Positions 41,034 to 46,046 of a DNA stretch of 64,000 nucleotides are shown here, one piece after another (within the stretch, counting starts at the first letter, position 1; each line of letters starts with the position of its first letter). The stretch lies in the sequence record OR062947.1. One strand, 5' to 3'. The notes beneath the pieces were generated by a model. The model saw nothing but the letters and a program-made list of their open reading frames with translations, ran no database searches and was not told the origin of the DNA. The stretch is from Escherichia phage 348Ecol098PP. The position numbers and the translations under genes were made by a program.

Positions 41034-41107
41034 GGCCCTGTAGCTCAACGGTTAGCAGCAGTCCCCTCATAAGGGAAAGGTTACCAGTTCGAATCTGGTC
41101 TGGGTCA
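41034..41107 (+). tRNA. tRNA with anticodon CAU (Ile2/Met type; T4 tRNA-Ile uses CAU)
   Basis: Hand-folded cloverleaf: acceptor GGCCCUG, T-arm ACCAG-UUCGAAU-CUGGU, anticodon loop CUCAUAA; one acceptor mismatch and a weak outer anticodon-stem pair; no encoded CCA. Confidence 0.55.
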
Positions 41108-41113
41108 TATATT

Positions 41114-41189
41114 CGAGGCATAGCTCAGAAGGAAGAGCAAGGACCTTCTAAGTCCTAGGTCGTAGGTTCGATCCCTACTGTCTCGACCA
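41114..41189 (+). tRNA. tRNA-Arg (anticodon UCU)
   Basis: Hand-folded canonical cloverleaf: acceptor CGAGGCA/UGUCUCG, D-arm GCUC-AGAAGGAA-GAGC, anticodon arm AGGAC-CUUCUAA-GUCCU, T-arm GUAGG-UUCGAUC-CCUAC, encoded CCA. Confidence 0.8.
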
Positions 41190-41927: not shown

Positions 41928-42554
41928 ATGTATACTTTTAATGAATTTTTAGCCGAAACGGAAGTAATCACCGAAGCCGGTGTACGTATGACAAAAGAGA
42001 AATGGCAAGCTGCTTACGATGCTATTTCTGGTACAAAAACTAGTACAGAGTTTTTCAAAAACGTTCAAGCCATGTACGGTATCGACACTTCCAGCCAAAA
42101 AGAATATTACAGAGCTTCTAAAGCATTCAAAGATATTGTTAGTGGTGGTGTTTCTGCTAAATCGGGTTCGCCTAAAGTAAAACCTGCTCCTACCATTCCT
42201 AAACCTGCGACCCCTAAAGCAATAGCAAAACCTGAGCCTAAGCCGGAAGTAAAAGCAACTCCTAAAGCTCCTGCTCTTAAGTTTGATACTTCTAGCCTGG
42301 AAAAAAAATATAAACAACTATCTTCGCTTGTTCGCGATATTGAATCCGATACATCTTCACTCGTTCGTGAATTCAATAGTCTTCGTAATGGCCAACATAT
42401 CAACAACCTTGATACCCCGGACCTTTATCGTCTTTATTTGACTATCGAAGGTTTGAAGTACACTCAACCACTTCACGACGCGATTAAAGAAAAACTTCGT
42501 CAGGCAGGTCGTTTGGCTGCTGACGCTGCTCAGTATGCAAAAACTCGTAAGTAA
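41928..42554 (+). CDS. Internal-protein-like (large), leader MYTFNEFLAE, proline/lysine-rich linker
   Basis: 208 aa; CTS-like N-terminus; PKVKPAPTIPKPATPKAIAKPEPKPEVKATPKAP linker; TATAAATA late promoter at 41885-41892. Confidence 0.55.
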   Translation: MYTFNEFLAETEVITEAGVRMTKEKWQAAYDAISGTKTSTEFFKNVQAMYGIDTSSQKEYYRASKAFKDIVSGGVSAKSGSPKVKPAPTIPKPATPKAIAKPEPKPEVKATPKAPALKFDTSSLEKKYKQLSSLVRDIESDTSSLVREFNSLRNGQHINNLDTPDLYRLYLTIEGLKYTQPLHDAIKEKLRQAGRLAADAAQYAKTRK

Positions 42555-43476: not shown

Positions 43477-43511
43477 TTTACAAACTCTTGAGAGCAGAGT
43501 ATAATGCTCTC
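43477..43511 (+). promoter_or_regulatory. Promoter TTTACA / TATAAT with GAGAGC/GCTCTC inverted repeat around the -10
   Basis: TTTACA 43477-43482, 17-nt spacer, TATAAT 43500-43505; IR 43490-43495 / 43506-43511. Confidence 0.5.
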
Positions 43512-43546
43512 ATTGGATAATAAACCACCAATTGAAAGGTAATAAT

Positions 43547-44140
43547 ATGAACACACTGAAGAAACTTGTCGAATTCATCCGCACTAAATTGGGTACTGCT
43601 ATGGCTAAAAATCTGACTGTCGAAGAACAGTATAACGCAGCTGCAGATAAGTTGATTACCCAAATCAAAGAACTAAAAACGGCTTCTGTTAAATCTATTA
43701 ATGAAGAAAAACGTATTCGCGAACTTGTTAATGAAAAGAACAAGCAAGCCGCTTCTAAGGAACGTGAAATTCGTAAGCTCCTGGCCGAAGGACAAGATGT
43801 TACCATGCATGCTAAGCTTGGTCTTCTGTATCGTCGAACTGCCGAACAACTTAATACAAAAGCTGACGGGTATGCCGCTATGCGAATTGAAATTGCTCGT
43901 AAGGTGGTTGAACTTGATGATGCTCGTCAGAACCTGGCAATCAAACTCGAATACATTCGTGAAACTCGAGCAGCCAATGCCCTTGGTATCTCTACGGCCG
44001 ATGATGTAATTGAAATCGCTGCACTGACTAAGGTTGATATCGAAGACACTCTGACTCGTGTTGAAACGTTCAATGGCACTCCAGCAGGTGTCGAAACCAC
44101 TTCTGCTGATGTACAAGAATATATTAACTCTTTGAAATAA
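43547..44140 (+). CDS. Coiled-coil protein with PspA/IM30-like character
   Basis: 197 aa from [10 protein letters not shown]; long amphipathic heptad pattern; segment pattern reminiscent of PspA (weak, by eye). Confidence 0.35.
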
Positions 44141-44148
44141 AATAATAC

Positions 44149-44170
44149 GGAGGACTCCGGTCCTCCTTTT
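44149..44170 (+). terminator. Rho-independent terminator
   Basis: GGAGGAC-TCCG-GTCCTCC + TTTT. Confidence 0.55.
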
Positions 44171-44189: not shown

Positions 44190-44792
44190 ATGCGAAACCA
44201 AAATAATGATATTGACTCAATGTTCGAAGAGTTCCGAGATAAGGTAAATCCACCTACGTCTTTAGTTGATTCATTACGATATGTTGCAACCGGACGTAAA
44301 TGGTACTGGTCGTCTTCTTATGAGACCACCGAGAAAACGGCTAGCCATAGCAGAAAATCTTTATTAGCCCCAGGTATTATGATTCATGATATCGGAGCTA
44401 TTGCTAAACTAGTTGCAGATCATGATATTAGATTCACCGATTTCGTTGCTCCTACATGGTCTGTTTGTTGTTTAAACACTGAATTGGAATATATCAGCGA
44501 ACGCTCTGAAGATTATTATGGTTTTAGAGATAAGCTTCTGAGGTCTAATATGTTTTATATCGATACAGAAGTTCTAGTCGATAATAAAAAATATTACTTT
44601 ACGTTAATCATCGATTCTGAAACTATGTATGAAGGCAAGCCTTTGCTTAAAAGAGTTGATGCTTTAAGTGCTATTGATGCGCTTTATGAAACCATGGTTG
44701 TTAGTCCTAATTTCACTAACAATTTAATCCTTGAGCAATTTATTATGGAATGTAGAGAATATGTCAAAGCCAACCCTGTACATGCCAAGTAA
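44190..44792 (+). CDS. Hypothetical protein with C-terminal FIMECR tail
   Basis: 200 aa from MRNQNN; ends ...EQFIMECREYVKANPVHAK. Confidence 0.45.
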   Translation: MRNQNNDIDSMFEEFRDKVNPPTSLVDSLRYVATGRKWYWSSSYETTEKTASHSRKSLLAPGIMIHDIGAIAKLVADHDIRFTDFVAPTWSVCCLNTELEYISERSEDYYGFRDKLLRSNMFYIDTEVLVDNKKYYFTLIIDSETMYEGKPLLKRVDALSAIDALYETMVVSPNFTNNLILEQFIMECREYVKANPVHAK

Positions 44793-45153
44793 GCCCTGGG
44801 CATACGAATACAAACGTAAATTAATCCCAAACGAAGTACTATTTGGCCCTATTTTAGCTTTAGCATTTTTAATCTTTATGATTATAGGAGCTGTTTTAGA
44901 TTCTAGTGAAGTTATATCGTCTGATGCAGTGTTTTTACTTATTATAGCTGGGTCGTTTATTGTGCCATTTTTATTAATGCCTATTAATTGGGTGGGATAT
45001 TGGTACCAAGGACGTCATCACAGAGCTAGAGTACGCGAATGGAAAATTCAATGTGCAAAAGCAAGAGCTCAATATGACGAGGCTGTTAAAAAATATGAAT
45101 ATGACGAAGCCATGGAATTCGTTAAGGAGATAAGATGCAAAAGCCTGAACTGA
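44761..45153 (+). CDS. Small membrane protein with C-terminal EFVKEIRCK tail
   Basis: 130 aa from ATG at 44761; two hydrophobic helices. Confidence 0.45.
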   Translation: MSKPTLYMPSKPWAYEYKRKLIPNEVLFGPILALAFLIFMIIGAVLDSSEVISSDAVFLLIIAGSFIVPFLLMPINWVGYWYQGRHHRARVREWKIQCAKARAQYDEAVKKYEYDEAMEFVKEIRCKSLN

Positions 45154-45192: not shown

Positions 45193-45255
45193 GAACTCCT
45201 AGCTAGACGTGAAAATGAAACAATCGAAAACTTTATTAAGGAATGTAGAAAATGA
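45178..45255 (+). pseudogene. Vestigial 25-codon ORF retaining the ENFIKECRK tail
   Basis: MISYNELLARRENETIENFIKECRK; contains the -10 of the promoter for the next gene, so likely a remnant 3' end. Confidence 0.3.
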
Positions 45256-45557
45256 GTAAGATTATTGAAATTAAAGTACCAGAGTTTAATGATGCCAAAT
45301 CCGCTTCAGATGCAATTTATAAACTTCTGAATCAAGCTGAACGTATCGAAGAAGAAGCAACAAAGATCGCAGACCAATATGCCGTATCATTTTCTGTAGG
45401 TGATTATGGTAGCGGTCGTACTTATTATCCTAAGGGTGAAATCGTATCCCAGTGGATGAAAAATGAAATTGAAAATAATGGTGGCGATGTTAAGCGTGAA
45501 GGTAATGGTTACGTTATTACTGAAGGTGCTTGGGTTTCGTCTTCTGCGTTGTGCTAA
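45252..45557 (+). CDS. Small protein, WVSSSxxC-tail family member 1
   Basis: 101 aa; ends GAWVSSSALC. Confidence 0.5.
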   Translation: MSKIIEIKVPEFNDAKSASDAIYKLLNQAERIEEEATKIADQYAVSFSVGDYGSGRTYYPKGEIVSQWMKNEIENNGGDVKREGNGYVITEGAWVSSSALC

Positions 45558-45566
45558 GGAATCATT

Positions 45567-45839
45567 ATGTCTAAAGAACAAACCGAACTGGCTGAAGCTG
45601 TAGCAAAAATCTATGCAGCTATTGAGGCTGCCAAAGAAATTGCTGATAAACAAAACACAACATTCGACTTGCACCCAGCTTATGGTATGGGTGGAACCTA
45701 TCATTCACCCGGACATCTTAAAGCCGATCTTGAACGTTGTACAAAAAACGGCTATGCTGAATGGGCTGACGTTTACCAATACGACTACAACCTGAGCCTC
45801 GAAACTGGTGGTTGGGTCGCATCTTCTCACACTTGCTAA
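45567..45839 (+). CDS. Small protein, WVSSSxxC-tail family member 2
   Basis: 90 aa; ends GGWVASSHTC. Confidence 0.5.
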   Translation: MSKEQTELAEAVAKIYAAIEAAKEIADKQNTTFDLHPAYGMGGTYHSPGHLKADLERCTKNGYAEWADVYQYDYNLSLETGGWVASSHTC

Positions 45840-45848
45840 GGAAACTAT

Positions 45849-46046
45849 ATGTCTCGTGAATTAGATTGTGCTGTACGTACCGCAGTAGCTGCCCTGGAAA
45901 ACCTGTTCCAAATTGCAACAGAAGAACGCGAAGAAGTTACATTGTGGATTGAAGATAACGCAGGTCTGAATCTCCAGGACGCGATCTCATTATCCCACAA
46001 TAGTATCACTGTTCAAGGCTGGGTATCATCTAGTTATTCTTGCTAA
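45849..46046 (+). CDS. Small protein, WVSSSxxC-tail family member 3
   Basis: 65 aa; ends QGWVSSSYSC. Confidence 0.5.
   Translation: MSRELDCAVRTAVAALENLFQIATEEREEVTLWIEDNAGLNLQDAISLSHNSITVQGWVSSSYSC

What the first reader, a model, noticed from the sequence alone, without database searches (positions are those of the whole stretch)
43547..44140. Long coiled-coil protein with PspA/IM30-like features in a phage early region
The 197-aa product is almost entirely amphipathic helix and shows, by eye, segment patterns similar to bacterial PspA (for example [17 protein letters not shown] and the following hydrophobic heptads). If real, the phage would encode its own membrane-stress/membrane-remodelling protein, which could stabilise the envelope during infection or antagonise host envelope-stress signalling. 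The similarity is weak and needs a profile search.
Basis: inference. Interest (0 to 1): 0.45.

Follow-up and report, generated by a model that had tools for sequence, protein, structure and literature searches.

The report
Phage T4 e.6: divergent PspA homolog
This early gene of a T4-like phage (the counterpart of T4 gene e.6) encodes a highly diverged relative of the bacterial membrane-repair protein PspA/Vipp1, so the phage probably brings its own inner-membrane stabiliser, although nobody has yet tested what it does.

Summary
The ORF is real: 43547..44140 (+), 197 aa. It has its own early-type promoter and terminator, and its predicted structure is about 80% helical. It is the ortholog of T4 gene e.6 (PHROG 1203) and occurs intact in about 1,100 phage genomes.

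The window protein alone gives no Pfam PspA hit, but the family does.
- Ackermannviridae (Vi01-like) members of the family pass the Pfam PF04012 gathering cut-off (39.0 and 35.1 bits against 33.9).
- These members match the T4-type profile at 99.9% probability (E 1.9e-37).
- The whole family matches a PspA/Vipp1 alignment collinearly from residue 1: hhalign 93.6%, E 2e-7.
- Controls are clean: reversed template 0.5%; heptad-block shuffles score 16.5±2.9 against 51.6 for the native template.
- Two AlphaFold models show an N-terminal amphipathic helix followed by a long hairpin. The top 8 and top 11 Foldseek PDB hits are all Vipp1.

It is not fully new. A 2022 paper predicted PspA homology for PHROG 1203 from a Kuttervirus member. 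T4 e.6 itself was still listed as unknown in 2025, is expressed early, and scored dispensable on laboratory E. coli.

The function (membrane and proton-motive-force protection, possibly against abortive-infection defences) is inferred, not shown.

The parts
43477..43505 (+). sigma-70 / T4-early-type promoter, TTTACA-17 nt-TATAAT (11 of 12 matches)
   Evidence: It lies 42 nt upstream of the ATG. T4 e.6 RNA is classed early (PMC9697503 supplement). This is a consensus match only: the number of promoter-like sites in the region equals the shuffle expectation.
43534..43539 (+). Shine-Dalgarno-like GAAAGG, 7 nt before the ATG
   Evidence: Read directly from the sequence.
43547..44140 (+). CDS, 197 aa: ortholog of T4 gene e.6 (PHROG 1203) and a divergent PspA/IM30-family protein
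43550..43612 (+). Residues 2-22: predicted N-terminal amphipathic cationic helix, equivalent to PspA/Vipp1 helix alpha0
   Evidence: The AF2 helix spans 2-22 with low pLDDT of about 55. Hydrophobic moment is 0.43 against 0.42 for E. coli PspA, and net charge is +3. hhalign aligns it to PspA residues 1-22.
43619..43786 (+). Residues 25-80: first arm of the helical hairpin (alpha1)
   Evidence: AF2 pLDDT is about 85-97. It is collinear with PspA alpha1.
43802..43981 (+). Residues 86-145: second arm of the hairpin (alpha2/3), including the highly conserved [11 protein letters not shown] segment just after the turn
43982..44137 (+). Residues 146-197: family-specific C-terminal module (LGI..DDV..VD(I/V).D..RVETF.G...D..EY..SLK). 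It is short and modelled with low confidence, and only loosely alignable to PspA alpha4/alpha5 (RVETF against RFESF).
44149..44170 (+). Intrinsic-terminator-like hairpin GGAGGACTCCGGTCCTCC followed by TTTT. It also scores on the minus strand.

Best explanation
The gene is the RB69/HX01-type ortholog of T4 e.6. It encodes a strongly diverged, shortened member of the PspA/IM30/Vipp1 family (the bacterial ESCRT-III superfamily), and it is transcribed as a stand-alone unit from an early phage promoter.

Shown here:
- homology to PspA/IM30;
- a predicted alpha0 helix plus alpha1-alpha2/3 hairpin architecture;
- early expression of the T4 ortholog;
- wide conservation in T4-like and Vi01-like phages.

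Inferred mechanism:
- Like PspA, the protein sits on the cytoplasmic face of the inner membrane through its cationic amphipathic N-terminal helix.
- It self-assembles through the hairpin into carpets or polymers that seal or stabilise stressed membrane.
- This preserves the proton-motive force in an infected cell that can no longer induce its own sigma-54-dependent psp operon, because T4-type phages shut off host transcription (established knowledge).
- The likely pay-offs are sustained energy supply, avoidance of premature holin triggering by depolarisation, tolerance of superinfection damage, and resistance to membrane-depolarising abortive-infection effectors.
For: Homology:
- PF04012 hits above the gathering cut-off in family members P0183 and P0177, both collinear (protein 6-146 to profile 2-143).
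- Precomputed PF04012 on many Vi01-like members, one of which NCBI names 'PspA/IM30 family protein'.
- P0183 finds T4-type e.6 genes directly by tblastn. One example is Klebsiella phage Mineola, which the window protein also hits at 62% identity.
- hhalign of family A2 against PspA/Vipp1 gives 93.6%, E 2e-7, aligning 1-148 to 1-157. Without the Pfam-positive members it gives 89.7%. Reversed template gives 0.5%. Seventy heptad-block shuffles score 16.5±2.9 (maximum 27.9) against 51.6 native, z=12.
- A profile against PDB sequences gives Vipp1 as 3 of 6 weak collinear hits.

Fold:
- AF2 models have pLDDT 75 and 79 with a hairpin of 25-80 and 86-145.
- The Foldseek top 8 and top 11 hits are all Vipp1, E down to 1.3e-4, followed by CdvB2 and PspA.
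- The alpha0 helix has a hydrophobic moment equal to that of PspA, and net charge is +1 to +5 across the family.

Expression and conservation:
- Own promoter and terminator.
- T4 e.6 RNA is early and the protein is detected.
- 1,101 phage records carry the gene, against 1,486 carrying T4-type gp3.

A membrane or anti-Abi role was proposed independently for a Kuttervirus member (PMC9409062). T4 induces the host psp operon only weakly (PMC12795941).
Against: - The window protein on its own, and T4-type sequences alone, give only weak signals: no Pfam hit, and hhalign 9.8% and 27%.
- The C-terminal third, which in PspA/Vipp1 (alpha4-alpha5) builds the polymer, is shortened, divergent and poorly modelled. 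Polymerisation may therefore be lost or altered.
- There are no PspB/PspC/PspF or LiaI-type partners nearby.
- The amphipathicity of alpha0 is only modestly above shuffles (p about 0.08).
- Knock-down of T4 e.6 caused no fitness loss on laboratory E. coli (PMC11879866 supplement), so any role is conditional.
- No membrane binding, oligomer or PMF data exist.
Confidence: 0.5

Rival explanations
1. Dedicated counter-defence. The phage PspA homolog exists specifically to block abortive-infection systems that kill by depolarising or permeabilising the inner membrane (Rex-like, AbiZ-like, transmembrane CBASS or retron effectors). It is otherwise dispensable.
For: - This hypothesis was put forward for the PHROG 1203 member of Salmonella phage SeF3a (PMC9409062).
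- T4 e.6 is 'Not Fit' (dispensable) on a laboratory host in CRISPRi-ART, as is typical of anti-defence genes.
- The gene is early-expressed, stand-alone, and sits in an accessory-gene region.
Against: - The gene is very widely and stably conserved (about 1,100 genomes, with long-range sequence conservation) rather than patchy like most anti-defence genes.
- No defence system is known to be countered by it.
- This reading overlaps mechanistically with the main explanation and differs only in the selective benefit.
Confidence: 0.2
2. Regulatory mimic or poison subunit. The protein uses its PspA-like hairpin to bind host PspF, PspB/C or PspA itself. It thereby silences or hijacks the host envelope-stress response rather than protecting membrane directly.
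For: - Only the alpha0-alpha3 part is conserved with PspA (Pfam profile 2-143 of 220). In E. coli PspA this part (residues 1-144, PDB 4WHE) is, to my knowledge, the region that carries PspF regulation.
- The polymer-forming C-terminus is divergent.
- T4 triggers only weak psp induction (PMC12795941).
Against: - T4-type phages already shut off host transcription globally (established knowledge), which makes a specific PspF inhibitor largely redundant.
- Homologs occur in phages of hosts with different Psp architectures, such as Aeromonas and Acinetobacter-type contigs.
- No conservation of PspF-contact residues could be tested.
Confidence: 0.12
3. A generic coiled-coil hairpin protein unrelated in function to PspA, for example a scaffold, adaptor or lysis accessory. 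On this reading the PspA similarity reflects common helical-hairpin architecture, or homology so ancient that it carries no shared function.
For: - There are weak hits to many coiled-coil families, including Rz-like spanin models: phrog_1267 at E 0.042 and TIGR03495 at E 0.014.
- The T4-type subfamily alone gives only 10-27% hhalign probability.
Against: - Reversed and heptad-block-shuffled controls remove the signal.
- Pfam hits exceed the curated cut-off.
- The match is collinear from residue 1, including alpha0 and the position of the hairpin turn.
- Foldseek top hits are exclusively Vipp1.
- No signal peptide, lipobox or transmembrane segment is visible in the sequence, so a spanin role does not fit.
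Confidence: 0.08

Closest known systems
Bacterial PspA / LiaH / cyanobacterial-plastid Vipp1 (IM30), Pfam PF04012, bacterial ESCRT-III superfamily
   Same: - N-terminal amphipathic helix followed by a long alpha1-alpha2/3 hairpin with nearly identical helix boundaries.
- A collinear profile match over about 150 residues.
- Distant family members pass the PF04012 cut-off.
- Vipp1 chains are the best structural matches by Foldseek.
   Different: - About 25 residues shorter (197 against 222 aa).
- About 10-18% identity.
- The alpha4/alpha5 region is replaced by a short family-specific module.
- Basic pI of 7.8 against 5.4, with a more cationic alpha0 (+3).
- No pspBC/pspF or liaI neighbours.
- Encoded by lytic phages and driven by an early phage promoter rather than by sigma-54 and PspF.
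- Does not match the PspA or LiaH equivalog models.
PHROG 1203 members of Ackermannviridae (for example Salmonella phage SeF3a Gp_125, and the Vi01, T751 and SP1 proteins), predicted 'phage shock protein A' in PMC9409062
   Same: - Same protein family: the window protein hits phrog_1203 at E 4.6e-87, and hhalign A1 against A4 gives 99.9%.
- Same length (about 200 aa).
- Same C-terminal motif.
- Stand-alone gene among early and replication genes of a large lytic myovirus.
   Different: - Only about 21-25% identical to the window protein.
- The Vi01-type proteins retain enough PspA signal to pass Pfam on their own, while the T4/RB69-type do not.
- Flanking genes are not conserved.
T4 gene e.6 (NP_049742, UniProt P39224)
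   Same: - Direct ortholog at 88% identity.
- Same position between the tRNA genes and e.5/e.4.
- Early RNA, with the protein detected.
   Different: - Still annotated 'conserved hypothetical / unknown function'.
- Scored dispensable on laboratory E. coli.
- No link between T4 e.6 and PspA was found in the searchable literature.
Archaeal and eukaryotic ESCRT-III (CdvB, Snf7/CHMP)
   Same: The same hairpin core. CdvB2 and Snf7 appear among the structural matches.
   Different: - Much weaker matches.
- No Snf7 Pfam hit.
- No Vps4-type partner was seen in the region examined.

Membership tests
PspA/IM30 family (Pfam PF04012) | The protein itself scores above the PF04012 gathering cut-off | tested here: not met
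   The window protein gave no PF04012 hit even at E<=10. The T4-type members also gave none.
PspA/IM30 family (Pfam PF04012) | Family-level (transitive or profile-profile) homology to PF04012 proteins | tested here: met
   P0183 scores 39.0 bits and P0177 scores 35.1 bits, above the cut-off of 33.9. Both match the e.6 profile over full length at E 5e-17 and 2.7e-20. hhalign of A1 against A4 gives 99.9%. hhalign of A2 against PspA/Vipp1 gives 93.6%, E 2e-7. Reversed control gives 0.5% and block shuffles give z=12.
PspA/IM30 family (Pfam PF04012) | ESCRT-III-type core: long alpha1-alpha2/3 helical hairpin | tested here: met
PspA/IM30 family (Pfam PF04012) | N-terminal amphipathic membrane-binding helix alpha0 | tested here: met
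   Predicted helix at 2-22. Hydrophobic moment 0.43 (PspA 0.42, Vipp1 0.57). Net charge +3. Family mean moment 0.40. The region aligns to PspA 1-22. The amphipathicity is only modestly above shuffles (p about 0.08).
PspA/IM30 family (Pfam PF04012) | C-terminal helices alpha4 and alpha5 that pack on neighbouring hairpins to build rings or rods | tested here: inconclusive
   Residues 146-197 are short and have pLDDT of about 47-86. Pfam hits stop at profile position about 143-158 of 220. hhalign extends to an RVETF/RFESF match in some runs only.
PspA/IM30 family (Pfam PF04012) | Homo-oligomerisation, membrane binding and PMF maintenance | not testable with these tools
   Requires biochemistry, cryo-EM and physiology.
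Canonical Psp or Lia stress-response system | Genomic association with pspBC/pspF or liaI-type partners and stress-responsive regulation | tested here: not met
   Neighbours are T4 e.8/e.7/e.5/e.4-type ORFs of unknown function. Distant loci also lack such partners. The gene has its own early-type promoter.
PspA proper (TIGR02977) or LiaH (NF045984) equivalogs | Score above the NCBIfam equivalog cut-off | tested here: not met
   No hit for the window protein or T4 e.6. The Vi01-type members score 14-16 bits against cut-offs of 243 and 380.
Rz-like spanin (phrog_1267, TIGR03495) | Significant profile match plus an N-terminal transmembrane segment or signal anchor | tested here: not met
   E 0.042 and E 0.014, far below the cut-offs. 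The sequence shows no hydrophobic transmembrane stretch.

The most novel reading that the evidence does not exclude
T4-type and Vi01-type phages carry a streamlined ESCRT-III-like machine. It polymerises on the host inner membrane early in infection and actively repairs or remodels it. Candidate activities are sealing injection and superinfection lesions, holding the proton-motive force so that holin triggering and lysis inhibition stay under phage control, and neutralising membrane-depolarising abortive-infection effectors. On this reading, virus-encoded membrane repair is a general and previously unrecognised layer of phage takeover.
Probability: 0.3. Interest if true: 0.7.

Novelty: new member of a known kind. 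Interest (0 to 1): 0.42.

Why it matters
T4 is the best-studied lytic phage, yet e.6 is still listed as 'unknown function'. Assigning it to the PspA/Vipp1/ESCRT-III superfamily gives a concrete hypothesis that can be tested immediately. The gene is present in more than a thousand T4-like and Vi01-like genomes, including many therapeutic candidates.

The assignment also extends a superfamily regarded as a universal cellular membrane-repair system to lytic bacteriophages. It suggests that phages replace the host envelope-stress response they switch off. If the protein protects the proton-motive force, it bears on three things: control of lysis timing, lysis inhibition, and resistance to membrane-targeting anti-phage defences.

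The novelty is limited, because a 2022 genome-mining paper already predicted PspA homology for this PHROG from a Kuttervirus member.

Tried and rejected
- **Single-sequence searches.** Pfam, NCBIfam and PDB-sequence searches with the window protein gave only noise-level coiled-coil hits.
- **hhalign of the close-homolog alignment against a single E. coli PspA sequence.** Nothing found.
- **Attempts to gather a diverse PspA set.** I tried search for homologous proteins with E. coli PspA, a genome-contig scan, and a plasmid tblastn. These returned almost only enterobacterial PspA at 78-100% identity. The template profile therefore had to be built from those sequences plus Synechocystis Vipp1 (copied) and three about-30%-identical PspAs.
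- **afdb50 fold search.** The library was unavailable.
- **Synteny with Ackermannviridae-like loci.** The gene downstream of P0177 is not homologous to the window's e.5-like gene.
- **Spanin or lysis-accessory reading.** Rejected: the hits are sub-threshold and there is no membrane anchor.
- **'Host specificity protein' label.** Some records carry it, but I found no supporting evidence.
- **Literature search for T4 e.6.** Gene name, locus tag, protein accession and UniProt accession returned no functional study. The T4 genome review could not be read.

Full report
**1. Observation**

The window carries an ORF on the + strand ending at 44140. The ATG at 43547 gives a 197-aa product, [10 protein letters not shown]...EYINSLK. 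A GAAAGG Shine-Dalgarno-like element lies 7 nt upstream, and every homolog starts at the same methionine.

A TTTACA-17-TATAAT promoter (11 of 12 matches) lies at 43477..43505. A GC-rich hairpin with a T-run lies at 44149..44166, so the gene looks like a self-contained early transcription unit. These are consensus matches only: the region's count of promoter-like sites equals the shuffle expectation.

**2. Identity and context**

- The surrounding DNA is 97-98% identical to RB69/HX01-type T4-like coliphages such as moha, moskry and HX01.
- The protein is found by tblastn in 1,101 of 50,697 phage records, and 1,099 of these cover at least 80% of it. It is 88% identical to the product annotated 'e.6' in T4-type genomes.
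- In T4 itself, e.6 (NP_049742) lies between e.5 and e.7, downstream of the tRNA cluster.
- The window has the same order: tRNA-Met and tRNA-Arg at 41034..41189, several small ORFs, e.6, then ORFs in the PHROGs of T4 e.5 (phrog_2607) and e.4 (phrog_2604, predicted membrane protein).
- The window protein matches phrog_1203 at E 4.6e-87. T4 e.6 is listed as phrog_1203, 'unknown function', in a 2025 data set (PMC11879866 supplement).
- An exhaustive profile search of 1.84 billion representative proteins found only 45 clusters, all of about 200 aa.
- A T4 core tail protein (gp3) is found in 1,486 records. Roughly three-quarters of T4-type genomes therefore carry a readily detectable e.6.

**3. Test of the PspA idea by sequence**

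The window protein alone gives no PF04012 hit at E<=10, no PDB-sequence hit, and nothing against single E. coli PspA by hhalign. The by-eye similarity was therefore not valid evidence in itself.

Scanning each of 45 diverse family members against Pfam changed the picture.
- PF04012 was hit by five members.
- Two exceed the curated cut-off of 33.9 bits: P0183 at 39.0 bits (E 8.9e-10) and P0177 at 35.1 bits (E 1.4e-8).
- Three are sub-threshold: P0181 (E 1.3e-4), P0182 (E 1.1e-4) and P0172 (E 0.13).
- All five align collinearly, protein residues about 2-146 to profile positions 2-143 of 220.

These proteins are encoded on contigs carrying T4-type UvsX and gp41-like helicase genes. They belong to Vi01-like Ackermannviridae such as Vi01, T751, SP1 and RCIP0012. 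Many have PF04012 precomputed, and NCBI names one 'PspA/IM30 family protein'.

They are unambiguous full-length homologs of the window protein.
- hmmsearch with the close-homolog profile gives E 2.7e-20 (P0177) and 5e-17 (P0183) against the whole library.
- hhalign of the T4-type alignment against the distant group gives 99.9%, E 1.9e-37.
- They share the family-specific C-terminal motif.
- P0183 even finds T4-type e.6 genes by plain tblastn. Examples are Edwardsiella phage PEi20 'e.6' at E 2e-7 and Klebsiella phage Mineola at E 4e-6. Mineola is 62% identical to the window protein.

**4. Profile-profile comparison with controls**

I built a PspA/Vipp1 template alignment from enterobacterial PspAs, Synechocystis Vipp1 and three about-30%-identical PspAs.

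| Query | Template | Probability | E-value | Note |
|---|---|---|---|---|
| 45-sequence e.6 family (A2) | PspA/Vipp1 | 93.6% | 2e-7 | residues 1-148 to PspA 1-157 |
| A2 without the five Pfam-positive members | PspA/Vipp1 | 89.7% | 1.9e-6 | |
| Distant group (A4) | PspA/Vipp1 | 94.3% | 1e-7 | |
| T4-type sequences only (31) | PspA/Vipp1 | 27% | 6.7e-4 | collinear |
| Closest 24 (A1) | PspA/Vipp1 | 9.8% | 3.3e-3 | collinear |
| A2 | reversed PspA/Vipp1 | 0.5% | 0.12 | control |

Seventy shuffles of the template in 7-column blocks keep coiled-coil periodicity. They gave a score of 16.5±2.9 (maximum 27.9, best probability 16%), against 51.6 for the native template, z of about 12. The signal is therefore not a composition or heptad artefact.

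A profile search of PDB sequences had already put Vipp1 in 3 of 6 weak hits, collinear from the N-terminus.

**5. Structure**

Two AlphaFold2 models, from 24 and 45 sequences (mean pLDDT 75.1 and 78.7), agree on the layout:
- helix 2-22, low confidence;
- hairpin 25-80 and 86-145, pLDDT about 85-97;
- a poorly defined 146-165;
- short helices 166-174 and 186-196.

To my knowledge this is the alpha0 / alpha1 / alpha2-3 layout of PspA and Vipp1, at nearly the same residue numbers.

The N-terminal helix has a hydrophobic moment of 0.43 (E. coli PspA 0.42, Vipp1 0.57). It is cationic: +3 in the window protein and +1 to +5 across the family.

**6. Differences from cellular PspA**

- It is 25 residues shorter.
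- It is only about 10-18% identical in the aligned region.
- Its pI is 7.8 against 5.4.
- The region that in PspA/Vipp1 forms alpha4-alpha5 is replaced by a short conserved module, LGI..DDV..VD.D..RVETF.G...D..EY..SLK. Only part of this (RVETF against RFESF) aligns in some runs.
- It fails the PspA and LiaH equivalog models.
- No PspB/C/F- or LiaI-like genes are nearby.

It is best filed as a divergent phage clade of the PspA/IM30 family, not as an ortholog of PspA.

**7. Expression and fitness data from the literature**

- In T4, e.6 RNA is classed early and the protein middle (PMC9697503 supplement).
- In a genome-wide CRISPRi-ART screen, e.6 (7 guides, score 0.30) was 'Not Fit', meaning dispensable on laboratory E. 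coli. The lysozyme gene e was also 'Not Fit', so the screen is not very sensitive (PMC11879866 supplement).
- T4 infection induces the host psp operon only weakly compared with phiX174 (PMC12795941).

**8. Prior knowledge**

A 2022 genome-mining paper reported from an HH comparison with pdb70 that Gp_125 of Salmonella phage SeF3a (Kuttervirus, phrog_1203) is homologous to PspA. It proposed annotating phrog_1203 as 'phage_shock_protein_A' and hypothesised an anti-abortive-infection role (PMC9409062).

I found no paper connecting T4 e.6 by name with PspA. I also found no mention of phage-encoded members in two broad PSP/ESCRT-III surveys, and no experimental work on the family. The homology is thus a confirmation and extension to the T4/RB69 branch, not a first discovery.

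**9. Mechanism**

The following steps are inferred.
- By analogy with PspA/Vipp1, the cationic amphipathic alpha0 helix would anchor the protein to the anionic cytoplasmic face of the inner membrane. This draws on established knowledge of alpha0-mediated membrane binding and of hairpin-mediated carpets, rings and rods that reduce proton leakage.
- The hairpin would drive self-assembly on stressed membrane.
- T4-type phages abolish host transcription, so the sigma-54/PspF-dependent host response cannot be mounted. An early phage-encoded substitute would maintain the proton-motive force through injection damage, superinfection and late membrane crowding.
- It would also prevent depolarisation-triggered premature holin firing.

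The main rivals are these.
- A dedicated anti-Abi role. The biochemistry is the same and only the selective reason differs.
- A PspA mimic that titrates PspF, PspBC or PspA.
- A functionally unrelated coiled-coil protein.

The tools available here cannot separate them. The experiments that would are listed under next steps.

**10. Verdict**

Function is inferred, at about 0.5 for direct membrane and PMF protection. Novelty is 'new member of a known kind': a phage branch of PspA/IM30 that had been partly predicted before. Interest is moderate. The gene is conserved in the model phage T4, and the hypothesis is directly testable.

Noticed in passing
window 45252..45557, 45567..45839, 45849..46046 (+): Three tandem small paralogous ORFs of 101, 90 and 65 aa. 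The first two match phrog_899. All three end in a shared C-terminal motif, G(A/G)WV(S/A)SS..C, and their function is unknown.
   Followed up: partly
L086 (MT835668.1, 3476-4144) and L087 (MT839532.1, 2206-2883): Two 'UNVERIFIED Bacteriophage sp.' faecal-metagenome contigs encode canonical full-length PspA of 225 and 227 aa. They start MGIISRFKDIMSANINALLDK and are 31% and 28% identical to E. coli PspA. These are the only phage-collection hits to E. coli PspA. Whether they are real phage genes or bacterial fragments is unknown.
   Followed up: no
GenBank and UniRef records of e.6 homologs (for example MZ502379, MT515752, OR125554): Several records call this protein 'host specificity protein'. 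Nothing seen here supports that name, and it looks like a propagated annotation.
   Followed up: no
window 44149..44166: The terminator-like hairpin after e.6 is palindromic and scores as a terminator on both strands, with a T-run on each side.
   Followed up: no
window 44190..44792 and 44785..45153 (+): The e.5-like ORF (phrog_2607) overlaps the start of the e.4-like ORF (phrog_2604). The T4 counterpart of the latter is annotated as a predicted membrane protein, and its sequence shows hydrophobic stretches. A membrane protein two genes downstream of the PspA-like gene could be a partner, but this was not tested.
   Followed up: no
window 41928..42554 (+): A 208-aa ORF (phrog_2280, unknown function) with a Lys/Pro/Ala-rich low-complexity middle segment (KPAPTIPKPATPKAIAKPEPKPEVKATPKAP).
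   Followed up: no
window 41034..41189 (+): Only two tRNA genes (Met-CAT and Arg-TCT) lie upstream of the e.8-e.6 block between 36000 and 43000. T4 has eight tRNA genes at the equivalent place.
   Followed up: partly
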